A program made the position numbers and the translations under genes. A stretch of DNA of 64,000 bases from the NCBI RefSeq assembly GCF_004010195.1, contig NC_057755.1, forward strand, positions 3,743,462 to 3,807,461. Reading direction: 5' to 3'. The first letter of the stretch is position 1. Every line of letters begins with the position of its first letter. The stretch comes from Chiloscyllium plagiosum. Its lineage: Eukaryota. The notes beneath the pieces are model-generated. The model worked only from the letters and a program-made list of their open reading frames with translations. It did no database searches and was not told where the DNA came from. Positions 2,999 through 64,000 of the stretch are shown here, one piece after another.

Positions 2999-3288
2999 GG
3001 GCAGCACGTTGACACAGTGGTTACCACTGCTGCCTCACAGCGCCAGAGACCCGGGTTTAATTCCCGCTTCAGGCAACTGTCTATGTGGAGTTTGCACATT
3101 ATCCCCATGTTTGCGTGGGTTTCCTCCCAAAAATGTGCAGATTAGGTGAATTGGCCATGCTAAATTGCACGTAGTGTTAGATGAAGGGGTAAATGTCGGG
3201 GAATGGGTCTGGGTGGGTTGCTCTTTGGAGGGTCGGCATGGACTTATTGGGCCAAAGAGCCTGTTTCCACACGGTAAGTAATCTAAAC
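2999..3288 (+). mobile_element. HE1-type tRNA-derived SINE
   Basis: tRNA-like head (cagtggtt...gggtttaattcc, A/B boxes), tgtggagtttgcacatt core, CR1-like tail gggccaaagagcctgtttccacac..taatcta. Confidence 0.88.
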
Positions 3289-9642: not shown

Positions 9643-10530
9643 TAATCTTTCGCATTTTGCCAAAACCCAGAGACATAGCTAAGTAAGAGTATACTGTTTG
9701 GGTCTCTTAGAACAAGGTGCGGTCTAATTCTGGTGATGTCCATGGAGAGTACTGATTGAACGATAGGGATTCATAGCTCAATGTATTCTCTGAATCTGGA
9801 AGGAGGATCTCTATTCACAAGGAGAGGAGCTTTGTTTAGGTGAGGGCTGTGGAGTATAGTCTTGCTTAGGTGGGGTGGTGGTGGTGGGGACTGGAGACAC
9901 CACACCAAATGTTGAAGTTCTTATGATTGCAGTGTTTATCCAATCTGATACACGGTGGTTGGATTCACTGGTAAATATCTAGATAGCTCAGATTGCCAGG
10001 GTGTTCAAAGCAAGGGACGCATTGCCCTATTACTTGTTTTTTTTTAAATATTTTGGAGACCATCCATTCCTAGATATTATGGAGTTATTGAATGCCCTGT
10101 ACTGTCGTTCATATCATGTTGATGTACAATTCTAGGGGCAATCTCAATTGTGGAGGCTCCACAGGAATTTTGTCATCTATATCTATGCCATTCTTTGTTT
10201 TACTGATCATGCATGTCTTTGTGTGCATATTATGGTCTTATGGATAGCTCCAGCCAGTGGGAGTAACCTCTAATGCTGCTGAAATCAACCGCTGTCAACC
10301 CCAATAACATGTGCATGACTGTGTTTGGGGAGTAATCTGCTTCTTATATTCTTTACTATGTCTTTTCAAAGTGCAAATGATTCATTTCAAGAGTTCAGAT
10401 TCTGTAAACTTCATATGACATGGAACAATTATCTTTGTGCTAAAATCCATCACGTACAGTTTGGGCTCAGGCACAGAAATGTTTGACCAGTAACTTCAAG
10501 TCTCTTTTTTACCGTTTCTCTTTCTTACAG

Positions 10531-11417
10531 TTAGTCTAGTGACAATTGTCTTCTTGGCTCGGGGCAAATGTGGTCTTTCTTCATGCAGCAATCGCTACCT
10601 GGTGGCCATGGCAGTGTCTGATCTACTGTTCATTGTTTTTGAGGTTGTCCTTCTTCGATTTCGATCTTATTATTATCCACGGTGTTTTTTGGATATCACT
10701 CCTGTTTGTTGTGTTCTCTATGTCCTGAGCTGCTTGACCATTGATTGTTCTGTGTGGTTCACTGTTGCTTTTTCTTTTGATCGATTTGTCGCCATTTGTT
10801 TTCATCAAATGAAATCTCAGTATTGCACAGAGAAAACTGCAATGAGGGTTCTAGCAACTATTTGTATTTTCTTTTCTATAAAGAACATTCCCAATTACTT
10901 TCGATATAAATCTAAAGAGATCATCAACAACGTTCCATGGTCATGTCGTACCAGATCCAGTTATTATAATGGCCTTCATTGGGCAAGTTTTAAATATTTT
11001 GAACATTTTTTAACACCAATGTTCCCATTCACTTTCATTCTCTTTCTCAACGCTCTGACTGTCAGACACATCACCGAGGCCATGAAGGTGCGGAAGGGAC
11101 TGAGGTGTCAGAAAAACGCAGATAATGATCCAGAAATAGAGAGCAGACGGAATTCTGTGATTTTACTCTTTTCCATATCTGCCAGCTTCATGCTTCTCTG
11201 GTTGATGTATATTTTATATATCTTTAATGTCGGTCATTCCATGTATCACACTGTTTTTCTTCTATTTCTACAAGTTGCATTAATGCTGCGGAACCTAAGT
11301 TGCTGCACAAATGCTTGTATTTATATGGTGACTCAGAAAAACTTCAGAGACCAGTTAAAGTATGCAGTGAAATACCCAGTTATAAAAATAATTCAATTGT
11401 TGAAAAAATCCAAGTAA
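10531..11417 (+). CDS. GPR139-like: Exon 2 of GPR139-like class A GPCR (TM1 end to C-terminus; whole protein 317 aa)
   Basis: Polypyrimidine tract and ttacag acceptor ending 10530; uninterrupted ORF with hydrophobic TM segments, YLVAMAVSDLL (TM2), FSFDRFVAIC (DRY-like), PMFPF..LNALTVRHI (TM5), DPEIESRRNS, SCCTNACIY (TM7 NPxxY variant); stop TAA at 11415-11417. Family-level call, not orthology. Confidence 0.92.
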
Positions 11418-22604: not shown

Positions 22605-22970
22605 GGAGAGCTGCCGGGGCTGAGGGAGTTTGCATAGATGGAGAGGGGTGTTGGGGCTGGAGGGGGTTACAGAGATTGGGAGGACTGTAGGGATTGCAGA
22701 AGGTGACAGAGATAAGGAAGACAGTATGGTCAGGAAGTCGTTACAGAGATAAGGAGGGATGTAAGGGCTGGAGGGGGTTACAGAAAAGGAAGTTGTTGAG
22801 GCTGAAGGAGGTTACAGAGAAAGGGAGGGGTGTAGGGCTGGAGAGGATTGCAGAGACAGGGAGGGAGGTCAGGGCTGGAGGAGGTTACAGAGATAGAGAG
22901 AGTGTAAGGGCCACAGGAGGATACAAAGATAGGGAGCTTTAGGGGCTGGAGGACGCTGTACAGATAGATA
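22605..22970. repeat. G-rich minisatellite, about 35-37 bp unit (ggggctggagggggttacagagataggga...)
   Basis: About 10 degenerate copies containing ttacagaga; a related array lies at 52690-52990. Confidence 0.85.
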
Positions 22971-27839: not shown

Positions 27840-28692
27840 AACGTGGATCTTGATCAGATGGGCCAATGGGCTGAGAAGTGACATATAGAGTTTAATTGAG
27901 ATAACTGCGAGGTGTTGCATTTTGGGAAAGCAAGTCTTAGCAGGACCTATACACTTAATGATTAGGTCCTAGGGAATGAACAAAGAGACCTTGGAGTGCA
28001 GGGTCGTAATGCGTTCAAAGTGGAGTCGCAAATAGATAGGATAGTGAAGAAGGCGTTTGGTATACTTTCGTTTATTGATCAGAGTATTGAGTATAGGGGT
28101 TGGGAGGTCATGTTGCAGCTGTACAGGACATTGGTTAGACCGCTGTTGGAATATTGCGTGCAATTCTGGTCTCCTTCCTATTGGAAGGATGTTGCAAAAC
28201 TTGAAAGGGTTCAGAAAAGATTTACAAGGATGTTGCCAGGGTTGGAGGATTTGAGCTCTAAGGAGAGTTTGAATAGGCTGGGGCTGTTTTCCTTGGAGTG
28301 TCGGAGACTGAGGGGTGACCTTATAGAGGTTTATAAAATCATGAGGGGCTTGGATTGAATCAATAAACAAAGTCTATTCCCTGGGGTGAGGAAGTATAGA
28401 ACTAGAAGGCATAGGTTTGCGGTGAGAGGGGGAAGATATAAAAGGGAGCTAATGGCCAACGTCTTCACACAGAGGGTGGTACGTATATGGAATTAGCTGC
28501 CAGAGAAAGTGGTCAAGGTGAGTACAATTGCAACATTTAAAATGAATCTGGATGAGTATATGAATGGGAAGGGTTTGGAGGGATATGGGTCGGGTGCTGG
28601 CAGTTGGGACTAGATTGGGTTGGGATATCTGGTCGGCATTGACGAGTTGGACCAAAGGGTCTGTTTCCGTGCTGTACATCTCTATGACTCTA
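27840..28692 (+). mobile_element. Relatively young CR1/HER1 LINE 3' fragment
   Basis: 120-aa open frame LYRTLVRPLLEYCVQFWSP...LERVQKRFTRMLPGL...RRLRGDLIEVYKIMRGLD; tail ctctatgactcta. Confidence 0.92.
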
Positions 28693-31599: not shown

Positions 31600-32122
31600 T
31601 CACTTCTTTTGTTTATTTATTAATTGAATAACTCTCGTAAATTGATATTTCACTGCACTCTTCATCTCATTTCTGAATTTCTCCTGTGTTGCCACATAAA
31701 TGAATGTGTTTGTGCAGCAACTTAAGGTCCGCAGCATCCAGCCAGCTCTTTGAACTTTATAAAATGCATCATTGTGAACATTGCCTGTGAGGGAATAGAA
31801 GACATTTATAACATAGAGCAGCCATGGAATTATGAAGCTGCCTGATATTGTGAAGAGCAAAACCATAGATTTTCTTCAACTCTCCATCTCTGGGTCATTG
31901 ATATTTATCCTTTTGTTCTGCCTGCTCAGTCCCAATCGGAATTGACTTACCACCAAAATATATCGGACCGTCAGAGCATTCAGCAACAAGATGGAAAGAA
32001 ATGGGAGTAATGGGGTAAATATCAAATCAAACCAATCAAATCCTACACAACCAGGATCGGTATCAGAACCACGGCACATTGTTGACTATCTTTCCAGGTT
32101 CAAACGTAAAGTAGAAGGGGAT
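31600..32122 (-). pseudogene. Truncated GPR139-like paralog (TM4 end to C-terminus)
   Basis: Minus strand reads IPFYFTFEPGKIVNNVPWF, then a frameshift/deletion, then TDPGCVGFDWFDLIFTPLLPFLSILLLNALTVRYIL...NDPEMES*RKSMVLLFTISGSF...LSCCTNTFIY...AVKYQF. Collinear with the protein at 10539-11417; in-frame TGA at 31876-31878; 5' half absent. Confidence 0.9.
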
Positions 32123-34197
32123 AAAAGGGTTGCAATAGTAGTTTGGAAAACTGACCACTACACCATTGAAGTCAGGCGCCAAATTGAAGACACGTCCTCC
32201 TACCGCCCCCTCGACAATACCCCACCCCACCCATTACCAAACCATCATCTCCCAGACCATACACAAGCTCATCACCTCAGGAGATCTCCCACCCACAGCT
32301 TCCAACCTCATAGTTCGGGAACCCCGCACCACCCGATTCTACTGCCTTCCCAATATCCACATACCTGACCACCCCACCGACCAATTGTATCAGCCTACTC
32401 CTGCCCCACCGAACTCATCTCCACCTACCTCGATACTGTCCTATTCTCCCAGTCCAGGAACTCCTCACATACGTTCGAGACACCACCCACGCACTCCACC
32501 TCCTCCAAGACTTACATTTCCTCGACCCCCAATGCCTCATCTTCACCATGGACATCCAATCCCTCTACACCTCTATCCGCCATGACCAGAGCCTCCAAGC
32601 CCTCCGTTTCTTCCTCTCCCAACGTCCCCAGCAGTGCCCTTTCACTGACACTCTCATTCGTTTGGCTGAACTGGTCCTCACCCTCAACAATACTCCTTTG
32701 AATCCTCCCACTTCCTCCAGATGAAAGTGGTAGCCATGGGCACCCGCATGGACTCCAGCTGTGCCTATCTCTTTGTAGTCTACGTATAACAGTCCAACTT
32801 CCATAGATACACCGGCACCACTCCCTACCTCTTCATCTGCTATATTGATGACTGCATCCACGCCACCTCATGCTCCCACCAGGAGGTTGACCAGTTCATC
32901 AACTTCACCAACTCATTCCACCCCGACCTTAAACTCATCTGGACCATCTCTGACACCTCCCTCCCCTTCCTGGACCTCTCCATCTCCATCAATGACGACC
33001 GACCTAACACAGATATTTTTTACAAACCCACCAACACCAACAGCTACTTGAATTACACCTCTTTCCACCTACCTCCTGCAAAAATGTTATCCCCTATTTC
33101 CAATTCCTCCGCCTCCGCCGTGTCTGTTCCCACGAGGACCAGTTCCACCACAGAACACACCGGGTGGTCTCCTTCTTTAAAGACTAATTTCCCTTCCCAC
33201 ATGGTTGAAGATGCCCTCCAATGCATCGCATCCATGTCATACATCTCCGCCCTCAAACCGCACTCCTCCAATCGCAGCAAGGACAGAACCCCTCGATCCT
33301 CACCTTCCCCCTATCAAACTCCGCATAAACAGTATCATCCGGCAACATTTCCGCCAACGACAAATGGACACCACCACTACGGATATATTTCCCTCCCCAC
33401 CCCTTTCCACTTTCCGCAAAGACCGTTACCTCTGTGACTACCTGGTCAGGTCCATGGCCCTCTGACAACCCCCGGCCCCAGCACCTTCACCTGCCACCGC
33501 AGAAATTGCAAAGACTGGGTCCACGCCTCCCTCCTCCACCTCCATTCAAGGCCCGAAAGGAGCCTTCCACATCCATCAATGTTTCAACTGCACATTTACC
33601 AATGTTATTTATTGTATCTGTTGCTCCCGATGCGGTCTCCTTTACATTGGGCAGACTGGACACCTCCTCGCAGAGCGCTTTAGGGAACATCTCCGGGACA
33701 CCCACACCAATCAAACCCACCGCCCCGTGGCCGAATATTTCAAACTCCCCCTCGCACTCTGCCGAGGGTATGCAGGTCCTGAGCCTCCTCCACCGCCACT
33801 CCCTCGCCACTTGACGCCTGCAGTAAGAATGCCTCATCTTCCACCTCAGAACTCTTCAACCCCAGGGCATCAATGTAGACTTCATCAATTTCCTCATTTC
33901 CCCTTCCAACACCTCACCCCAGTTTCGACTTGCCAGCTCAGCACCATCGTCATGACCTGTCCTACCTCCAATCTTCATTCCTACCTATCTGCTCCACCCT
34001 CCTCTCCGACCTATCCTCACCTCCATCCACCTATTGTACTCTTAGCTACCTTTTCCGCAGCTCCACCCCTCCCATTTATCTCTCTACCCTAACTACTCCC
34101 TGCGTCATTCCCGATGAAAGGCTTTTCCCGAAATTTTGTTTTTCCTGCTCCTCGGATGCTGCCTGGTTTGCTGTGCTTTTCCAACACCACTCTAATC
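32120..34197 (+). mobile_element. Penelope-like element, 5'-truncated (RT, GIY-YIG endonuclease, terminal repeat), frameshifted
   Basis: DKRVAIVVW, FYCLPNIHIP, RPIVSA, FTMDIQSLYTSI, VAMGTRM, YIDDCI, LPFLDLSISI; GIY-YIG NVIYCICCSRCGLLYIGQTGHLLAERFREH at about 33600-33690; terminal cctgctcctcggatgctgcct. Confidence 0.92.
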
Positions 34198-40909: not shown

Positions 40910-42312
40910 CAAGGTACGCTATTGCACAAAATATAGAAGCATGGAATTGCAAGTGATTTAAACATTTTGGATCAGAAATTGGCTGATTGATGGGAAATGT
41001 TCACCCTGGAGTTCAGTTACCAGTGGTGTACTGTAAGGATCTGTTTTGGGGCCACTGCTGTTTGTGATTTCCATAAATGACCTGGATGAGGGCGAGAAGG
41101 ATGGGTTAGTAAATTTGTAGATGACACTAATGTCACTGGAGTTGTGGATAATGTAGAAGGATGTTGGAGGTTACAGAGGGACATAGATAAACTGCAGAAT
41201 TGGGCTAATAGATGGCAATTGGATTAATATGGATAAAGTGTGGAGTGATTCACTTTGGAAGGAGCAATGGGAATGCAGAATACTGGGCAAATGGTGAGAT
41301 TATTGGTAGAGTAGATGAGCAGAGAGATCTATGTCCATTTACATAGATCCCTGAAAGTTGCCACCCAGGTTGATAGGGTTCTTAAGAAGGCATACAGGGT
41401 GTTAGCTTTTACTAGCAGAGGGATTGAGTTTCAGAAGCACGAGGTCCTGATGTAGCTGTACAAAATTCTGGTGCGACTGTAAATGGAGTATTGCATACAG
41501 TTCTGGTCACTGCATTATAGGAAGGATGTGGGAGTTTTGCAAAGGGATCAAAGGAGATTAGATTACTTACAGTGTGGAAACAGGCCGTTTGGCCCAACAA
41601 GTCCACACCTACCCACCGAAGCGCAACCCACCCAGACCCGTCCCTCTACACTTACCCCGTCACCTAACACTATGGGCAATTTAGCATGGCCATTTCACCT
41701 AACCTGCACATTTTAGGATTGTGTGAGGAAACCCACGCAGACACGGGGAGAATGTGCAAACTCAACACAGTCAGTCACCTGAGGCAGGAATTGAACCCGG
41801 GTCCCTGGCGTTGTGAGGCAGTGCTAACCACTGTGCCACCATACCACCCTTAATTGCTAGATTTACTAGAAAGTTGCCTGGTATGGAGGGAAGGTCTTAC
41901 GAAGAAAGGTTGAGGGACTTGAAGCTGCTTTCGTTGGAGAAGAGAAGGTTGAGAGGTGGTTTAATTGAGATATATAAGAAAATCGGAGGGTTAGATAGGA
42001 TGGATAATAAAAGCATTTTTTCCTCGGATGGTGATGGCTAGCACGAGGAGGCATAGCTTAAAAGTGAGGAGTGATAGATTTAGGACAGATGTCAGAGGTA
42101 GTTTCTTTACTTAGAGAGTAGTAGGGGCGTGGAATGCACTGCCTGCAACAGTAGCAGACTTGCCAAATTTAAGGGCATTTAAATGGTCATTAGATATTCA
42201 TATGGATGAAATTGTAATTGTGTGGGTTAAATGGGCTTCAGATTGGTTTCACAGCTCAGTGCAATATCGAGGGCGAAGGGCTTATACTGCGCTGCAATGT
42301 TATATGCTCTGT
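40910..42312 (+). mobile_element. CR1/HER1 LINE fragment interrupted by an HE1 SINE
   Basis: GSVLGPLLF, SKFVDDT (RT catalytic FADD variant), MEYCIQFWSLHYRKDV. Confidence 0.88.
41555..41849 (-). mobile_element. HE1-type SINE
   Basis: gattagattacttacagtgtggaaacaggcc tail and gaattgaacccgggtcc head, antisense. Confidence 0.9.
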
Positions 42313-52689: not shown

Positions 52690-52990
52690 TGGAGGGTTGT
52701 TGGGCCTGGAGAGGTTACAGAGATAGGGAAGGGTGCATGTGTTGGAGGAGGTCAAAGTGAAAAGAGGACTTTGAAGACACTGGAGGATTGTACAGATATT
52801 GGGTGTGTTCTAATAGCTAGAGGAGGTTTCAGAGATAGTTCAAAGTGCAGGGCGGCAGGAGGTCACAGAGATATGTTGAAGAGTAGGGGAAAGGAGGGTA
52901 CAGAGATATGGAGAGGTGTAGTGACAAGACGTGGTTGCAATGGTTGGGTGTGATATAAATTCGGGAGTGGGTTACAGAGATAAGGAGGTA
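52690..52990. repeat. G-rich ttacagagata minisatellite (same family as 22605-22970)
   Basis: About 8 degenerate units. Confidence 0.75.
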
Positions 52991-53829: not shown

Positions 53830-54390
53830 TCATAGAACATAGAACAATACAGCGCAGAACAAGCCCTTCGGCCCCAATGTTGCGCCGATCTGTGAACTAT
53901 TCTCAGGTCGTCCCTCTACACTATCCCAAAATCATCCATGTGCTTATCTAAGGATTGTTTAAATCTCCCTAATGTGGCTGAGTTGACTGCATTAGCAGAT
54001 AGGGCATTCCACACCCTTACTACTCTCTGCCTAAAAAGCTTTCCTGTGATACCTGTCTTAAATCTATCGCCCCTCAATTTGTATTTATGCCATCTCGTAC
54101 AAGCTGACGTCATCATCCAAGGAAAACGTATTTCACTGTCCACCCTATTTAATCCTCTGATCATCTTGTATGTCTCTAATAAATCCGCTCTTAACCTTCT
54201 TCTTTCCAATGAGAACAGACCGAAGTCGCTCAGCCTTTCCTCATAAGACTTTCCCTCCAGACCAGGCAACATACTGGTAAATCTCCTCTGCACCTTTTCC
54301 AATGCTTCCACATCCTTCCTGCAATGGGGCGACCAGAACTGTGCGCAATATTTCAAGTGAGGCCGCACCAGCGTTTTGTGCAGTTGCACC
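53830..54390 (-). mobile_element. Young CR1/HER1 LINE 3' fragment
   Basis: 157-aa open frame LVRPHLKYCAQFWSP...RVVRVWNAL...FKQSLDKHMD; (ttctatg)n tail on the minus strand. Confidence 0.92.
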
Positions 54391-54483
54391 TAATATTGAA
54401 GAGATTCTGACACAATCTGTCAGGAAACCATATTATGGTGAAAAGATTTCCCTCCTTGCTTAGAAGCCATTTTGTAAAAGAAT

Positions 54484-56660
54484 GAGCTCTATTCTGCTCT
54501 GTGGGACTTCATTGGCCAGGGCCTGCTGGAGGTGTATGTCAGTATGCTTCTGGCAGGTACCATGAGAGAATCCATGAGGAAACGCATCATCTCCCTCATT
54601 TACAAGCGGAAGGGGGAGAGGAAGAAAATCAGAAATTGGAGACCAAACTCACTGTTGAATGAGGATTTCAAAATCTTGACAAAGGCCATCACCAACCGGG
54701 TCAGGTCTGCTCAGGGATCGGTGATACACCCTGACCAAACCTGTGCTGTACCGGACAGGAAGGTCGCTGAGAGTCTCGCACTCCTCAGGGATATGATTGC
54801 CTACGTGCAAGGCAGGGGGCTGGACACCTGCCTCATCAGCCTGGGCCAGGAGAAATCCTTTGACAGGATATTGCATACATACATGAGAGATGTTCTCTCC
54901 AAAGTGGGCTTTGGGGAGGGAATCTGCAATTGGATCAGACTGCTCTACACTAACATTGTCAGTGCAGTCTCAATCAATGGGTGGGAATCAGAAAGTTACC
55001 AGTCAGATCTGGAGTCAGGCAGGGCTGCCCTCTCTCTCCTGCCTTGTGCATAGAGCCATTTGCCGAGTCCATCAGGAAGGAAGCGATCCTGAGAGAGGTG
55101 ACTATTCCTTGCAGCAGGAGCTAGCAGGTTAAGGCCTCCCTGTACACGGATGACGTCGCTGTGTTCTGCGCGGATCCGCTGTCAGTGCACAGACTTATGT
55201 GCGTATGTGACCAGTTCGAATGGGCCTCGGTGGCCAAGGTCAACCGAGGCAAAAGCGAGGCTATGCTCATCAAGAACTGGACCGAACAATCCTCCTTCCC
55301 CTTCACCGTCAGGACTGACTACCTGAAGGTGCTGGGTATATGGTTCGGAGTGGCTGGGGTGTGCACCAAGTCTTGGGAGGAGCGTATCGGGAAAATGAGG
55401 CAGAAACTGGCAGATGGAAGCAACAATCTCGCTCCATCGTGGGAAAAAACCTGGTCATCAGGTGTGAGGCACTGTTAGTGTTGTTATATGTTGCACATGT
55501 CTGGCCTATTCCCAGAACCTGTGCCGTTGCAGTTACCTGGGCCATCTTCCATTTTACATGGAGATCAAAGATGGACTCGATGAATAAGGATCTCGCCAAC
55601 GGGGGGAAGAAAAACACACCCAATATCACCCTTACCCTGGTGGCCACCCTTGTATGTGGCTGCATCAAGTTGTGCATGGATCTCCGGTACACAAACACCA
55701 AGTGTCACTACGTACTGAAGTACTACCTGTCCCCAATGTTGCGAAGGATGGTCCTGGCCTCGCTGCTGCAGAACGCTCCGAGTTGTTGGACCATTCCGTA
55801 TCACCTGTCCTTCATGGAGAAATTTATGAAGAAAAACACTTTTGAGTCCATCAGGAAGTGATCAGCACGTCGAGTCCTTGAGACCCTTCGGGAAAAGGAG
55901 AGGGCGGATCCTGTTGTGCTTTTCTCTGGGCAGACTGTCAAAGTCATTTGACAAAATGTCTCATCGCCAGAACTTTTCAACAAGCACCAAGACTTAACTT
56001 GGCTAGTGGTGAGAAGGGCTCTGCGTGTGAGATCCTTTACGCAGGCCCGGACTCTCTGCTGCATCGCACACTGCCCTCGAGGCAGCTGTGGAGGAGACGA
56101 GGCTGTCACACACCTCCTTCTGGAATGTGGCTATGCAAAGGGAGTCTGGAGAGGAATGCAGTGGTGTTTGTCGAGGTTTTGACCCGAGCTGCTCCGTAAC
56201 GCTACGGTCTGTTCCCCGGGATGCACACCGAGACAACCATCAACTGTGCCTGGAGGATCATCAACTCGGTCAAAGACACTCTTTGATCTGTCCGAAACGT
56301 GTTGATCTTCAAGCTGAAGGAGTTGACCACGATTGAGTGTTGCAGACTGGCACATTCCAAGGTTCAGGACTATGTGTTGAGGGATGCGTTGAAGGTTGGG
56401 GAAGCTGCTGCCAAGGCGCGGTGGGGAAAGACCACCATGTAACATCTGCCTGCCAAAGAAAACAGGCAGCCCACTCAGTAAGTGGGCTCCGCTGACGCCT
56501 CAGCAAAATACATGGATGGTAAATTTACAGACCTGTATATATCAATGTTTAATTACGATCTCTGTATGTAAAGAAATGCATTGTGCGCCTATGAATGGCA
56601 CCACCAATTGCATAGATAATCAAAATATTTTATGAATAAAGTATATTTTTTAAATAAAAC
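54484..56660 (+). mobile_element. Tx1/L1-clade LINE, 5'-truncated, frameshifted
   Basis: NWRPNSLLNEDFKILTK, SLGQEKSFDRI, GVRQGCPLSP, YTDDV, YLKVLGIWF, C-terminal CPRGSCGGDEAVTHLLLEC zinc finger; AATAAA at 56635 and A-rich end. Confidence 0.9.
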
Positions 56661-57221
56661 AATATCAGACATGCGAGCTGTGCAAGGTTACCTGATGACA
56701 TCTCCCACTTAATTTATGCTGGTACTTCTTTATAGGAACTTATCTTGCCAGCAGATGCAGAACTCAGCTGGATTTGTTTTTCCAACCTGATGGTTAGCTC
56801 AAGGCCTGTAAGCAGTGATCAGCAAGTGCACACAAACCTGTCAATTAGCTTTTCTTCCTTATCAATTATTGCCTTTCACTGTTCTCTGTCGAATTAAGAA
56901 CATGCAATTTCTTTTCAAACTTTTGTATAAAGGAAGTCACTTTGCACGGGTACATCAGAGTAGCCTGCTTGGGCACTTGAAGAGCTGGTAACCTACACTC
57001 CTGGGTGATTAGAACCCAGCTCGTTTGGCTGAAAGGTATCAGTGTGATATAACAGTGATACAATTAGTGAAAAATGGGGATGATTACATTAAATCAAACT
57101 GACTGTAAGAGGCTTTTATTCCAGACTTCAAACGAGTATGATCGCCGGGACAAACCAAGAGGGAGGCTCATGGACCTGAGTCCATAAGGGATTCCCTTGG
57201 CCTGCAAAATCACCACGTTAA

Positions 57222-58245
57222 GTGCTGCAGGCGCTCAACATCAGAAATGGGATGCCAGCAAGACCAAGCAGCTTTACAAAGCACAGTGCGGCAGGTATTA
57301 ACAATCAGAAATGGGATGCCAGCAAGACCAAGCAGCTATACAAAGCACAGTGCGGCAGGTATTAACAATCAGAAATGGGCTGCCAGCAAGACCAAGCAGT
57401 ATTATAAAGCACAGAGCTGCAGTGACTCATTATTTCCCCCAAGCAGCTATATAAAGCGCAGTGTTGCAGGCCGTCAGCATCAGAAATGGGACATCAGCAT
57501 GACCAAGCAGCTATATAAAGCACAGTGCAGCAGGCCCTCAATATCAGAAAAGGGGTACCAGCATGACCAAGCATCTGCAAAAACACAGGTAATAAAAATC
57601 AGAAATCAACTGCCAGTGTGACCCAGCTGCTGACTTTCAACTGGTGCAGTCCAGGGGGAATCGACTTTTCAATTAAAACAAAGCATTGCAAAGGCCACAG
57701 GTCGTTGTTGACACGGTGTGATTTCTGCCCAGTGCACACGCTTCAGGCCCTGAAATCAAAACTGAGATACAACCATGACCAAACAGTTACATACAGCACA
57801 GTGCTGCAGGCCCTGAATATAAGAAATGGGAAACCAGCGTAATGCAGCATCTGATTTAGAACTGGTGCAGACCAGGTGAACCCGACTGTTTAATTAAAAC
57901 AAAGCACCACAAAGGCTGCAGACAGGTATTTTGACAGGATGTGATTTCTGCCCAGTGCACGCGCTTCAGACCCTCAATATCAGAAATAGGATACAAGCAT
58001 GACTATGCAGCTCTCTAAGGCATGGTGCTGCAATTCCTCAATAGCAGAAATGGGATACCAGCATGACCAAGCAGCTGTATAAAGCACAGTGCTGCTGGCC
58101 CTCAATATCAGAAATGGGATACCAGCATGACTAAGCAGCTGCATAAAGCACAGTGCTGCAGGTCCTCAATATCAGAAATGGGATACCAGCATGACCAAGC
58201 AGCTGTATAAAGCACAGTGCTGCTGGCCGTCAATGTCAGAAATGA
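57222..58245. repeat. 64-bp tandem satellite with a duplicated internal spacer
   Basis: Unit atcagaaatgggataccagcatgaccaagcagctgtataaagcacagtgctgcaggccctcaat; cagaaa recurs at 58045, 58109, 58173, 58237; a roughly 110-bp spacer occurs at about 57641 and 57862. Confidence 0.92.
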
Positions 58246-58399
58246 AAGAAGCAAGTTCAGAGAAATTCAGCAAATGTCACAGTGCCCGTGAAGAGAATGA
58301 TAGAATTTTGTGTTTTGAGGCCAATATAACTCTTCTGAAAAGGAGTCTTGTTGGACTAGAAATATTAATTCTCTTTCTCCCTTCGCAATCGTCCAAGAC

Positions 58400-59835: not shown

Positions 59836-60740
59836 CATAGAGTCATAGAGATGGACAGCATGAAAATAGATCCTTCAGTCCAACCCGTCCACGCCGACCA
59901 GATATCCCAACTCAATCTAATCCCACCTGCAGGCACCTGACCCATATCCCTCCAAACTCGACCTATTCACATACCCAAACAAATGCCTCTTAAATGTTGC
60001 AATTGTATCAGCCTCAACCACTTCCTCTGGCAGCTCATTCCATACAAGTACCATGCTCTGCATTAAAAAGTTGCCCCTTAGGTCTTTTTTATATCTTTCC
60101 TCTCTCACCTTAAACCTATGCCCTCTAGTCCCGACCCCAGGGAAAAGACTTTGTCTATTTATCCTATCCATGCCCCTCATAATTTTGTAAACCTCTATAA
60201 GGTCATCCCTTAGCCTCAGACTCTCCAGGGAAAATAGCCCCAGCCTGTTCAGCCTCTCCCTATAGCTCAAATCCACGAAACCTGGGAATATTCTTGTAAT
60301 TTATTTCTGAACCCTTTCAAGTTTCACAACATCTTTCCAATAGGAAAGAGACTAGGATTGCAAGCAATATTCCAACAATGGCCTAACCAATGTTATGTAC
60401 AGCTGCAATGTGACCTCCCAACTCCTGTACTCAATACTCTGACCAATAAAGGAAAGCATGCCAAACATCTTCTTCACTATCCACTACCTGCACTCCTAGA
60501 TCTCTTTGTTCAGCAACATTACCTCGGACCCATCCATTAAGTGTATAAGTCCTGCTAAGATTTGCATTTCCAAAATGCAGCAGCACTCATTTATCTGAGT
60601 TAAACTCCATCTGCCAATTGACCATTCTGGTCATGATCCTATTGTAATCTGAGATAACCTTCTTTGCTGTCCACTGCACCTCCAATTTTGGTATCATGTG
60701 CAAGGTTATGAACTATATCTCTTATGCTCGCATCCAATCC
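59836..60740 (-). mobile_element. CR1/HER1 LINE 3' fragment
   Basis: LSYRERLNRLGLFSLE..RLRDDLIEVYKIMRGMDR; ctctatgactctatg tail; same subfamily as 27840-28692. Confidence 0.92.
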
Positions 60741-61322: not shown

Positions 61323-62104
61323 ATCAAATGTACTGATTTGAAAGAGATAGGAAAGAGACCTTGATCAAGAGCTGGTTGAAGGCTATCTGTCTGAGAAGAG
61401 CTCCCACCACCTGTGGAGATAGACTCACTGTCAGTACTTCAAAATTTCAGTTTCCAGTTGTAAATATTGTCTTAATGAATTATCTAATGTTATTGTCAAC
61501 TCTTTCTTTCAATGTGCAGCGTATAAAACAACCTATATTTGTTAACAAGATTATAAATGATGCAACTATTTCGTTGAAGCAATTGACTCCCTGGAGGTTT
61601 GGCGCTAGAATTAGAACCAGAATTAGATTTTATTGTCGCGTGTTCTGAAGAACAGTAATATAAGAGTACATTGAAAAATGTACAAAATCTCCATTCTCTT
61701 CTACCACCTTAGTTACAAACCCAAAATTAAAGGAACAGCAGAAATAACAGAAAGCCAAAAGGCAAGCAAAGCATCCTGACATTAAAGTTTAAGGCGTTTC
61801 TCCACAAGTATGTTTGAAACCATCAATGCAGGCACACGGACCCAGCCACAGCCTGGAGTCCTGGTCAGCCTGCGAGTCTGAGAAGGAGCTGCACCAACCA
61901 CCTTAGACCGTCAGGAGCCCACTGCCATTGCACGCACCTCTCATTGCTGTGCAGATGTCACCGATTTACCCAAAGCAAAAGGCTAACCATGCTCTTACTA
62001 AGAGAAAGCACACATAATCTTGACAGGCCAATCACTGTGCATCACCTGTCTATCCACTATCTGTGTCTGGAAGAGCTTTATACATTCTGGAATATGAACA
62101 TAAT

Positions 62105-62647
62105 TGTGGGATATAGGTAAAGCACTGTTGCTTCTGCAGCCGTAATTACTTCTGCAAGGTGATGAGCTAACCTAAACCATTGTATAATTGATTCAGCCAA
62201 GAACTGAGATAGCTAAAATGTGCATACAAAGATGAAACCCTAAAGAGGGAATACATAATTGCTTCTGCTATGTAATGGACTAACTTACACAACTGTATAA
62301 TTGTTTCAGCAGAGAGCTGAATTAGCTAAAATGTGATTGCAAACAATGGAACATTTAGATTTAGATTACTTTACAGTGTGGAAACAGGCCCTTCAGCCCA
62401 AAAAGTCCACACCAACCCGCAAACCACCCATACCCCTACATTTACCCCTTACCTAACACTACGGACAATTTAGCATGGACAGTTAATCGAGAGAGACTCA
62501 ATTAAGCTGTATAAATTGTGGAGAACTTTTTGGATCAGTGTGCCTTCTTGTTAGACACCTGTCTTGCAATAACGTTTCAATAAAATTCGCCGCTTCAGAA
62601 TTTGACTCACACTGAAATTTATTGATGCATGAGCTTTGTTTCTCACA
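62105..62647 (+). mobile_element. ERV 5' LTR (with an HE1 3' fragment inserted at about 62354-62478)
   Basis: TGTGGGA...TCTCACA imperfect inverted termini; duplicated U3-like motif (about 62180 and 62292); TATAAA at 62510; AATAAA at 62579; followed 3 nt later by a PBS. Confidence 0.8.
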
Positions 62648-62650
62648 ATT

Positions 62651-62668
62651 TGGGCGCTCGTCTGGGAT
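62651..62668 (+). promoter_or_regulatory. Retroviral primer binding site, tRNA-Pro
   Basis: TGGGCGCTCGTCTGGGAT matches the MLV-type PBS-Pro TGGGGGCTCGTCCGGGAT at 16 of 18 positions. Confidence 0.88.
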
Positions 62669-62950
62669 GTCCATCATCGCCAGCAGGGTAGGCAACGTCG
62701 ATAGCTGGAAAGACACGTCCTTGTTCCTTTTAGAATAGTCCTGTGTTCCTAGGCGGTGGATTCCCCTTCTGGTTGACAGATTGAGATCCAATGAGAGTCT
62801 ATCTGAACCAGGCGAAAGGGTAGGCACAGGGAAACATCGAGCCAGGCAACTCTGTGCACGGACCAAGAAGGAAAATTGACTTTTAAGTACTGCCTTTGTG
62901 GCTGGGATTGAGTTCTAGTAGTTAGCAAGAGGCTAACGAAGGAACTCAAT

Positions 62951-63275
62951 ATGGGCTGTGCCGAGGGTAAAGAACATGTCTACGGGGAAAAAAAAAGAAA
63001 ATGGAGTTGGAGGCAGGGTCCCTGACACCATACCTCCAGAAATCCCACTATTGTGGAATTGAAAAAAAAAATGTACAAGGGAAAAAGATAAGATAAAGAT
63101 GATTAAATATTGTTGCTTTGCATGGACTAAGGAATCCATTCTGCATACCGCCGTGTTCTGGCCAAAGTACGGATCTGACGATGACTGTGTTTGTAAATAT
63201 TTGAATTTATATGTAAACAGAAAACAGCCTTTCAGTCAGGAGGAATCGGATTCTGCTTCATGTCGGAAGGGCTAG
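62951..63275 (+). pseudogene. gag: Degraded ERV gag matrix (class I, HERV-I/HERVIP10-like)
   Basis: MGCAEGK..., frameshift in an A-run, then PDTIPPEIPLLWN*KKKCTREKDKIKMIKYCCFAWTKESILHTAVFWPKYGSDDDCVCKYLNLYVNRKQPFSQEESDSASC; lies about 280 nt after the PBS. Confidence 0.82.
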
Positions 63276-63355
63276 TAGCTGAAGAGCTACTGAGGGTACA
63301 CTTCGTAACTAAATCATGGTCAGACATCCAGAAATAGATTCTAAAGATGGAGGGG

Positions 63356-63356
63356 T

Positions 63357-63410
<54 letters not shown>
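63356..63410. repeat. (GT)n(GA)n compound microsatellite
   Basis: Direct reading. Confidence 0.95.
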
Positions 63411-63414
<4 letters not shown>

Positions 63415-64000
63415 AAGAGCTGCACAGCTAATAGAAAGCTTAGCCCTTTGTTTGTTGGTGATTGAATGTTTGTGCTTTGTTGAGCTTGAGATCCGGGACT
63501 GTTTTGAATCTGATTTCTATTATGGAAATTTAACATGATTTCTTTTAAGGTTAAGGATTTTACAGTGATTATGAAATGAAATGTTTACTCCTGTTCTTTA
63601 ACAGGTCACGACTGTAACTAACTAATCAGTTTCTAACTAATCTCTTTTTTTCTTTACATAAAGGCCAACCTTGTTCGGTCTCAGATCAGCTTAATACGGA
63701 GGAAAACAACATTATAACTTTTTTTGTGTTTCAGACCCATTTGTTTCCACTTAATTTTAAGATTGATGTGTTTCATTGATTATTATAATGTGCTAGCCTT
63801 AGCCTTATTCAGAATGTCCCCTACCTCAATGACAGTTGAAGTTTCAGTTCAATATTGGATTGTAATAAGTCCAAAAAAGATCGTATGGTTAATATGTGTG
63901 ACCTTGGATTCGGCCATTTTTCATGCATTAAAATTTTTTTTTACTTGAATGGACAACTCCTTTTAAGGCAGCTCCGGTTATTTCGCGATTTAGAGTATTG

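What the first reader, a model, noticed from the sequence alone, without database searches (positions are those of the whole stretch)
62105..63275. HERV-I/HERVIP10-like endogenous retrovirus (LTR, PBS-Pro, gag matrix) in an apparent shark genome, absent from the ORF track
Seen: TG...CA LTR with inverted termini, TATA and AATAAA, a 16/18 tRNA-Pro PBS, two GGTAGG donor-like sites in the leader, an MG start, and a broken frame with IPP..PL, MIKYCCF.WTKE.IL....FWPK.GS..D.VC..L..YVN.K.P.SQEE. Knowledge: this motif string matches my recollection of HERV-I/HERVIP10-group Gag matrix, a class I lineage reported across distant vertebrates including sharks. Inference: such recognisable similarity in matrix, normally a fast-evolving part of Gag, suggests cross-class transmission rather than co-descent since the shark-amniote split. 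Homology appears to end after matrix, so the provirus may be internally deleted.
Basis: partly seen in the sequence, partly recalled or inferred. Interest (0 to 1): 0.75.

Follow-up and report, generated by a model that had tools for sequence, protein, structure and literature searches.

The report
Dead HERV-IP-like retrovirus relic in shark
This is a broken, many-times-copied remnant of an old retrovirus in what is probably a shark genome, related to human HERV-IP and to snake and bird elements; such relatives in sharks, and the idea that they jumped between vertebrate classes, were reported long ago, so it is a clear new example and not a new principle.

Summary
The anatomy is real: a 543-nt LTR (62105-62647), a proline primer-binding site, a leader and a broken gag. 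The matrix piece hits 138 proteins (best E 3e-21), among them shark, ray, snake, bird and HERVIP/HERVADP-type Gags, and a natural relative folds like MLV matrix (Z 11). Two corrections. First, homology does not end after matrix: the end of capsid follows at once (63266-63358, other frame), so about 0.65-1.3 kb of gag is missing. Three contigs of other copies, in two organisms, cross the same junction, which fits a deleted, helper-dependent subfamily that was copied many times. The tree gives modest support instead: with this element, shark and ray Gags are rejected as one group (AU p 0.0005-0.03), without it they are not (p 0.28). Its sister group is unresolved; snake elements score among the best. 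A human-ERV-like element in the lemon shark, with cross-transmission proposed, is already in print. No pol, env or 3' LTR is available here. Verdict: new member of a known kind, low to moderate interest.

The parts
62105..62647 (+). 5' LTR, 543 nt with the SINE insert, about 416-420 nt without it
   Evidence: TG...CA inverted ends, TATA and poly(A) signals, PBS 3 nt behind it; contigs of organisms B and C stop or start matching at 62102-62103 (records 20 and 12)
62143..62343 (+). Tandem duplication in U3: 62143-62230 and 62256-62343, 78% alike; enhancer-like repeat (function inferred)
62361..62484 (-). 3' part of a roughly 300-nt SINE inserted antisense into U3 after integration; not viral
   Evidence: 77-79% match to the 3' ends of copies at 41558-41695 and 3149-3287; at least 7 related copies in the window; summed contig depth in the millions
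62510..62515 (+). TATA box
   Evidence: 69 nt before the poly(A) signal
62579..62584 (+). Poly(A) signal, 63 nt before the LTR end
   Evidence: a small RNA read peak from other copies in bin 62546-62612
62651..62668 (+). Primer-binding site for tRNA-Pro
   Evidence: 16/18 to the canonical site, 17/18 to a variant listed for a HERVIP chain
62669..62950 (+). Leader, presumed packaging region, with GGTAGG at 62687 and 62819 (donor function untested)
   Evidence: multi-copy in organisms A, B, C
62951..63272 (+). gag matrix, broken: Met-Gly start at 62951, a change of frame before about 63010, a stop at 63060-63062 with a short gap against relatives; stop-free piece 63063-63272
   Evidence: 138 hits with E<=0.001; tblastn of relatives; fold of a natural relative matches MoMLV matrix, Z 11.1
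63263..63275 (+). Deletion junction: end of matrix abuts the end of capsid; relatives have 218-437 residues between these points
   Evidence: crossed by contigs of other copies (records 7, 8, 24)
63266..63358 (+). gag capsid C-terminal scrap, about 30 codons, other frame, stop at 63335-63337
   Evidence: profile of 5 relatives' capsids: best of 1278 tiles, E 4e-6; 5 of 17 long Gags hit it at E<=0.001 on the whole window
63357..63411 (.). (GT)n(GA)n microsatellite at which the recognisable viral sequence ends
   Evidence: sequence
63412..64000 (.). Unassigned T-rich DNA; no nucleocapsid, pol, env or 3' LTR match found; may or may not belong to the element
   Evidence: 0 Pfam families in 6 frames; 0 hits of 17 Gag, Gag-Pol and env-bearing relatives at E<=0.05; no second LTR in the window

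Best explanation
A dead copy of a class I (gamma-like) endogenous retrovirus of the HERVIP/HERVADP-related lineage in an elasmobranch genome. Shown: LTR, proline PBS, leader, matrix, a deletion of most of gag, a capsid scrap, many related copies, and the same junction in other copies. Inferred: an exogenous retrovirus of this lineage entered the germ line; one derivative lost the middle of gag but kept the cis signals (LTR, PBS, leader and 5' gag) that are needed to be packaged and reverse-transcribed; intact proviruses supplied the proteins and copied it to many sites. This copy then decayed (SINE in U3, frame change, stops, microsatellite) and makes no Gag. The lineage has most likely changed host class at some point, because shark and ray members do not form one group against amniote members, but donor, direction and date are open. 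Odds: family identity about 0.9, copying of the deleted form in trans about 0.6, some cross-class transfer in its history about 0.65.
For: Identity. Deletion. Shared junction: X1 records 7 and 8 (depth 50 and 65 against 12-19 for contigs of this locus; 20 and 23 other letters in 178) and X9 record 24 (depth 37; 30 other letters and 8 gaps in 227) lie across 63263-63275 with more than 50 letters on both sides. Copies at other sites: X14 record 12 starts matching at 62103 with 107 unmatched letters before it. Family transcribed in viral sense from other copies: RNA run X21, reads differ from this locus at 55 of 55, 61 of 61, 66 of 66 and 28 of 29 at four listed sites. Tree incongruent with hosts: AU p 0.0005 (34 rows), 0.026 (26 named rows), 0.015 (mixture model).
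Against: No pol, env, 3' LTR or target-site duplication could be examined; class and group are normally defined on RT. The contigs across the junction are short (180-219 nt) and do not show their flanks, and the upstream flank is itself present in several copies, so segmental duplication can also spread one deleted copy. With matrix alone, one elasmobranch group is not rejected (p 0.098); without the window row it is not rejected (p 0.28); the window paired with either of two Chiloscyllium lineages is not rejected (p 0.29 and 0.17). The window row has only about 92 residues and carries post-insertion decay; trees are unrooted. Summed contig depth is not a copy number.
Confidence: 0.7

Rival explanations
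1. Same virus, but the deleted form arose once in the chromosome and was spread by segmental duplication, not by packaging and reverse transcription.
For: The upstream flank has several diverged copies in all three organisms (tables 2, 3, 8); junction contigs do not show flanks.
Against: Summed depth on LTR, leader and gag bins is mostly ten or more times that of most flank bins; a contig of organism C joins the LTR start to other DNA; a flank-like contig of organism B stops matching at 62102.
Confidence: 0.2
2. No jump between classes: several lineages of this virus group are older than the shark-amniote split and were inherited or re-infected within each class; matrix is simply well conserved.
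For: Matrix is about as conserved as capsid in this family; at least four elasmobranch lineages exist; elasmobranch rows without the window can form one group.
Against: The window is as close to human-type and snake Gags (55-64% in the core) as to the nearest shark Gags (56-65%) and closer than to ray Gags (40-54%); no teleost or amphibian among the hosts named; Xu 2018 found frequent host switches and scattered cartilaginous-fish ERVs.
Confidence: 0.3
3. A specific jump between snakes (or other squamates) and sharks founded this family.
For: Matrix-only tree: sister to Thamnophis and Notechis elements, 91/86; capsid scrap scores best with Naja and Notechis (17/25, 16/27) among the 20 proteins compared.
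Against: The grouping is not starred, falls to 90/7 with unnamed rows and is open in the matrix-plus-capsid trees; window with HERV-like rows is not rejected (p 0.35); the closest sequences include unnamed ones (P0182, P0002, P0004).
Confidence: 0.2
4. Artefact: mammalian DNA or a mis-assembly in the window.
For: Many of the protein hits are unnamed records from metagenome assemblies, where host contamination is common.
Against: A 642-nt contig with 4 differences crosses the flank-LTR border and a 320-nt contig with none crosses LTR, PBS and leader (the run may be the window's own sample); a SINE of this genome sits inside the LTR; the family is in three organisms; identity to HERVIP is only about 60% in protein.
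Confidence: 0.02

Closest known systems
HERVIP (Repbase HERVIP10F/LTR10) and HERVADP (HERVP71A/LTR71), supergroup HERVIPADP of Vargiu et al. 2016, PMC4724089
   Same: Matrix motifs (33 of 55 core residues to the HERVIP consensus, by eye); proline PBS, the first listed PBS of HERVIP; A-rich gag (35% A).
   Different: Outside both groups in every tree; other host class; middle of gag deleted; pol, env, zinc finger and ISD markers not present to test. 'HERVI' in that paper is another group (supergroup HERVERI).
Lemon shark (Negaprion brevirostris) ERV close to a human ERV, Herniou et al. 1998, as cited by Han 2015 (PMC4422223); HERV-I-related viruses across vertebrates, Martin et al. 1997 (title only)
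   Same: A human-ERV-like class I element in a shark with cross-transmission proposed; avian HERV-I-like elements called probable horizontal transfers (PMC1224870).
   Different: I recall those as pro-RT PCR fragments (recalled; neither paper was read), so no overlap with this gag piece can be compared.
Gag-like predicted proteins of Chiloscyllium plagiosum, C. punctatum, Narcine bancroftii and Hemitrygon akajei (for example XP_043534218.1, XP_072423017.1, XP_069793707.1)
   Same: Same matrix and Gag_p30 capsid family, already in public shark and ray annotations.
   Different: Only 40-65% identical in the matrix core: other lineages, not this family.
Snake ERV Gags of Thamnophis sirtalis (XP_013925307.1), Notechis scutatus and Naja naja
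   Same: Best named hit of the matrix piece (64%, E 4e-19) and best scores for the capsid scrap.
   Different: Sister relation not strongly supported; the Naja protein has a different N-terminus.
Moloney murine leukaemia virus matrix, PDB 1mn8
   Same: Top fold match of a natural relative (P0009): Z 11.1, rmsd 2.8, 80 aligned; the first ten rows are all retroviral matrix or Gag N-terminal structures.
   Different: 20% identity; no Pfam matrix family matches the window piece.
Non-autonomous, internally deleted ERV subfamilies such as mouse ETn or IAP I-delta-1 (recalled, from no call)
   Same: Cis signals kept, coding part deleted, the same deletion in many copies.
   Different: Copying in trans is inferred here; helper and flanks are not seen.

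Membership tests
Class I (gamma/epsilon-like) ERV | LTR with TG...CA ends followed by a tRNA primer-binding site | tested here: met
Class I (gamma/epsilon-like) ERV | Gag with gammaretrovirus-type matrix | tested here: met
   window piece hits Gag N-termini; relative P0009 (54% to the window piece) folds like MoMLV matrix, Z 11.1. The window's own 70-residue model was poor and matched nothing.
Class I (gamma/epsilon-like) ERV | Gag_p30-type capsid | tested here: met
   scrap matches the capsid ends of relatives that carry PF02093; Pfam on the 40-residue scrap alone gave nothing
Class I (gamma/epsilon-like) ERV | RT clusters with gamma- or epsilonretroviruses | not testable with these tools
   no pol in the window; no genome held
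Provirus (complete) | Second LTR and target-site duplication | not testable with these tools
   no second LTR within the window; the window ends 645 nt after the last viral match
HERVIPADP-related lineage | Matrix motifs specific to HERVIP and HERVADP among HERV consensus Gags | tested here: met
   (long runs in that file are cut in storage)
HERVIPADP-related lineage | PBS for Pro or Ile (HERVIP) or Phe (HERVADP) | tested here: met
   Pro. PBS type is an unstable marker.
HERVIPADP-related lineage | One zinc finger, GPY/F integrase motif, ENRiALD-type ISD in env | not testable with these tools
   markers listed; these regions are not in the window
HERVIP group proper | Falls inside the HERVIP clade in a Gag tree | tested here: not met
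   HERVIP-like rows form a starred clade (99-100/97-98) without the window; labels given by eye from the published consensus
HERVIP group proper | LTR10-type LTR | not tested
Non-autonomous ERV subfamily | Same deletion junction in several diverged copies | tested here: met
   3 of the 24 listed contig pieces cross it, in 2 organisms; 60075 further pieces were not shown
Non-autonomous ERV subfamily | Deleted copies have different flanks and paired LTRs | tested here: inconclusive
   LTR copies with other flanks exist, but cannot be tied to the deleted form with short contigs

The most novel reading that the evidence does not exclude
This family is a separate cross-class jump between squamates (snakes) and sharks, distinct from the other three or four HERVIP-related lineages of sharks and rays, and it then spread in the ancestor of several related shark species as a gag-deleted, helper-dependent subfamily that is still transcribed. 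It would date and orient a land-sea transfer of a gamma-like retrovirus into a class from which one survey reported that clade absent.
Probability: 0.2. Interest if true: 0.55.

Novelty: new member of a known kind. Interest (0 to 1): 0.27.

Why it matters
Modestly. It adds one more lineage to the HERVIP-related retroviruses of sharks and rays, and it is the row that breaks agreement between virus tree and host tree in this small data set. Xu 2018 (PMC6001957) describes the gammaretrovirus clade as limited to amniotes, and a 2016 review (PMC4977317) reports none in teleosts, so a well-dated shark family close to snake or human elements would help settle where gamma-like retroviruses began and how often they crossed from land to sea. 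The locus itself is inert and too short to settle this.

Tried and rejected
No result: Pfam on 4 gag pieces (0 families); PDB by sequence (0 hits; 1 chance hit at E 0.32); word-index search of the X-read matrix against longer proteins (40 candidates, none scored); ESM Atlas (no usable hit); own genome (none held); tRNA scan and Rfam on the window (0); earlier findings by sequence, words and near place (none); fold search with the window's own 70-residue model (best Z 3.7); metagenome and viral contigs (2 and 1 weak loci; not retroviral on checking); no RNA holder listed. One search was a faulty tree (capsid block set wrongly) and is disregarded; one search replaces it. Rows dropped: P0126 (broken gene model in matrix); N-termini of 8 rows and capsid columns of 8 rows were blanked because they lack that part. 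Rejected readings: homology ends after matrix; matrix similarity alone shows recent transfer; GGTAGG sites as shown donors (no splice joint from them among the listed joints); contamination; the small word shares of organisms B and C as evidence of the same locus (they equal about the SINE's share of the stretch). Dating by LTR pair was impossible. A paper search for the SINE's name gave nothing useful, so its name (HE1-type, recalled) is unverified.

Full report
1. The observation. The sequence at 62105-63275 is as described. The LTR runs from TG at 62105 to CA at 62647, with 6 of the first 7 bases inverted at the other end; TATAAA is at 62510 and AATAAA at 62579. Three bases behind the LTR lies a 16/18 match to the proline primer site. 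It is the only site in 64 kb, on either strand, with fewer than 5 mismatches, and 60 Markov resamples of the window gave none with 2 or fewer. The motif I used was recalled, then confirmed in the Vargiu 2016 supplement, which also lists a variant in a HERVIP chain that the window matches at 17/18. The two GGTAGG hexamers are present but common (27 in the window, 18 expected). The gene is absent from an ORF track simply because it is broken: a Met-Gly start at 62951, a change of frame before about 63010, a stop at 63060-63062, then a stop-free piece of 70 codons.

2. What the protein is. Pfam, PDB sequence search, a word-index search and the ESM Atlas found nothing. A full HMMER search of 1.84 billion representatives with the 70-residue piece gave 138 proteins at E<=0.001 and 42 at E<=1e-10, best 2.6e-21. 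All 23 that I first read are Gag N-termini, and 5 of 17 scanned carry Gag_p30 further on, 3 of them plus one more above the curated cut-off or near it. I looked up 30 of the 138; 12 name a host: 5 elasmobranch (Chiloscyllium plagiosum twice, C. punctatum, Narcine bancroftii twice), 1 snake and 6 birds. Two further searches added Notechis, Naja, Hemitrygon, more Chiloscyllium and more birds. In the HERV consensus file of Vargiu 2016, MIKYCC occurs once and FWPK three times, in the HERVIP and HERVADP Gags; the window core is 33 of 55 identical to the HERVIP consensus (counted by eye). Six unnamed hits were labelled HERVIP-like or HERVADP-like by eye from these consensus lines; their hosts are not on record. 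That the domain is matrix was tested by fold: the window's own piece lacks the first helix and gave a poor model with no match, but a natural relative (P0009) gave a good model (pLDDT 81) whose best match is MoMLV matrix (Z 11.1, rmsd 2.8, 80 aligned), followed by nine other retroviral matrix or Gag N-terminal structures (Foldseek agrees).

3. The deletion. Directly behind matrix, in another frame, 63266-63358 matches the C-terminal end of capsid. All 5 of the 27 longer relatives that reach that far hit it in the targeted comparison; a profile of their capsids, built without window sequence, ranks it first of 1278 tiles at E 4e-6, the next unrelated tile at 1.4. Relatives have 218-437 residues between the two points (9 proteins), so about 0.65-1.3 kb is gone: the proline-rich spacer and most of capsid. 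A (GT)n(GA)n run follows at 63357-63411. The last 589 bases match no Pfam family, none of 17 Gag, Gag-Pol or env-bearing relatives, and there is no second LTR in the window.

4. Copies. I laid 4 of the 24 listed runs on 61340-63335 at 80% likeness. In organism A, contigs nearly identical to this locus have depth 12-19; one crosses the flank-LTR border (642 nt, 4 differences), so the insertion is real, though that run may be the window's own sample. Summed depth over LTR, leader and gag bins is 850-25,000 in A and hundreds to thousands in B and C, against mostly 90-750 on the flank of A: a multi-copy family in three organisms (summed depth is not a copy number). Three of the 24 listed pieces cross the matrix-capsid junction with more than 50 letters on each side: two in A (depth 50 and 65; 11% and 13% different from this locus) and one in B (depth 37; 13% and 8 gaps). 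So the deletion is older than many copies. A contig of C starts matching at 62103 with other DNA before it, and a flank-like contig of B stops at 62102, which confirms the LTR edge. In the RNA run (2% read) reads cover matrix at depth 29-63 in the viral sense, if the library follows the usual strand rule, and differ from this locus at every read or nearly so at four listed sites: other copies are transcribed, this one is not shown to be.

5. How it most likely works. Shown: cis signals intact in outline, gag deleted and broken, many copies, shared junction. Inferred from general retrovirology: a deleted genome that keeps LTRs, PBS and packaging leader can be packaged and reverse-transcribed by proteins of an intact provirus, and so multiplies (about 0.6). 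The rival is segmental duplication of one deleted copy (about 0.2); the flank does have several diverged copies. This copy is inert as a gene.

6. Transmission. In this family it is not: over 54 pairs among 11 relatives, matrix core identity averages 49% and capsid 52%, and matrix is equal or higher in 21 pairs (the matrix block was trimmed to its core and many rows were found by matrix, which favours matrix). The tree is a better test. Matrix alone (20 named rows, 82 columns) puts the window beside two snake elements at 91/86 and does not reject one elasmobranch group (p 0.098). Matrix plus capsid rejects it: p 0.0005 with 34 rows, 0.026 with 26 named rows, 0.015 under the mixture model. Without the window row it is not rejected (p 0.28), so this element is what breaks the host pattern. 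But its sister is open: pairing it with either of two Chiloscyllium lineages (p 0.29, 0.17), with both (0.067) or with the HERV-like rows (0.35) is not rejected; only pairing with the ray-plus-shark lineages is (0.015). These are several tests on about 92 decayed residues, in unrooted trees, and old parallel lineages could give the same pattern. I put some cross-class transfer in the lineage's history at about 0.65 and a snake-shark jump at about 0.2.

7. Host. Shark or ray is inferred from CR1-like LINE ends and a SINE that I recall as the shark HE1 type (recalled, not verified; one search found no paper), and agrees with unchecked AI notes on the same genome. I had no search left for a host gene. 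About 0.9.

8. What is known. Han 2015 (PMC4422223, whole text) states that a lemon shark ERV closely related to a human ERV was reported earlier and thought to come from cross-transmission; the source, Herniou 1998, is not held, and of Martin 1997 I saw only the title in reference lists. Jern 2005 (PMC1224870, passages) notes avian HERV-I-like elements as probable horizontal transfers. Vargiu 2016 (PMC4724089, passages and supplement passages) defines HERVIPADP and its link to avian ChiRV1. Xu 2018 (PMC6001957, passages and section 9) finds cartilaginous-fish ERVs scattered through the tree and frequent host switches, yet describes the gamma clade as amniote-only. The bioRxiv preprint 10.1101/2021.11.23.469661 (passages) reports gamma-related class I ERVs in anamniotes, names ERV-GA.a-Cpu and 46 orthologous ERV groups in Chiloscyllium; its supplements were closed and may already hold this family. 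PMC11089739 (passages) counts 2018 clade I RT loci in 6 chondrichthyan genomes. PMC4977317, PMC12287698, PMC10435555 and PMC3230843 were seen as passages. Searches found no paper on a shark-snake grouping or on this deleted subfamily; the library lacks most subscription journals.

9. Verdict. A real, dead, gag-deleted member of a known vertebrate-wide lineage: it works like a defective class I ERV, is related to HERVIP and HERVADP, and is not a member of HERVIP itself. New member of a known kind; interest 0.27. The boldest reading left open, a separate squamate-shark jump followed by helper-dependent spread, has probability 0.2 and would deserve 0.55.

Noticed in passing
window 10494-11417 +: Intronless 307-codon frame for a rhodopsin-class GPCR (7tm_1, E 7e-16); looks like the orphan receptor family that I recall as expanded in sharks.
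   Followed up: partly
window about 31950-34100 +: Broken Penelope-like retroelement: RT-like frames and a GIY-YIG domain at 33466-34089 (E 8e-5).
   Followed up: partly
window 54478-55861 +: Broken Tx1/L1-like LINE with RVT_1 (E 2e-10).
   Followed up: partly
window 27876-28692 +, 59838-60619 -, 53916-54389 - and others: Many CR1-like LINE 3' ends, 73-85% alike.
   Followed up: no
window 57158-58290: Array of a 64-nt tandem unit in two blocks.
   Followed up: no
window 22617-22936 and 52702-52950: Purine-rich minisatellite with a 37-nt unit.
   Followed up: no
protein P0148 (Chiloscyllium punctatum, XP_072441898.1): Predicted protein runs from Gag straight into what looks by eye like the end of an env transmembrane region: possibly another internally deleted ERV of this lineage, or a spliced gene model.
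   Followed up: no
proteins P0003 and P0187 (Thamnophis, Notechis): Long Gag frames of 593 and 697 residues with a repeated, lengthened spacer between matrix and capsid in two snake families; could be young or co-opted.
   Followed up: no
protein P0206 (Naja naja): Capsid of this lineage behind a different N-terminal domain: a possible recombinant Gag.
   Followed up: no
window 61340-62104: The upstream flank is a low-copy repeat with 12-17% diverged copies in organisms A, B and C; no match elsewhere in the window.
   Followed up: partly
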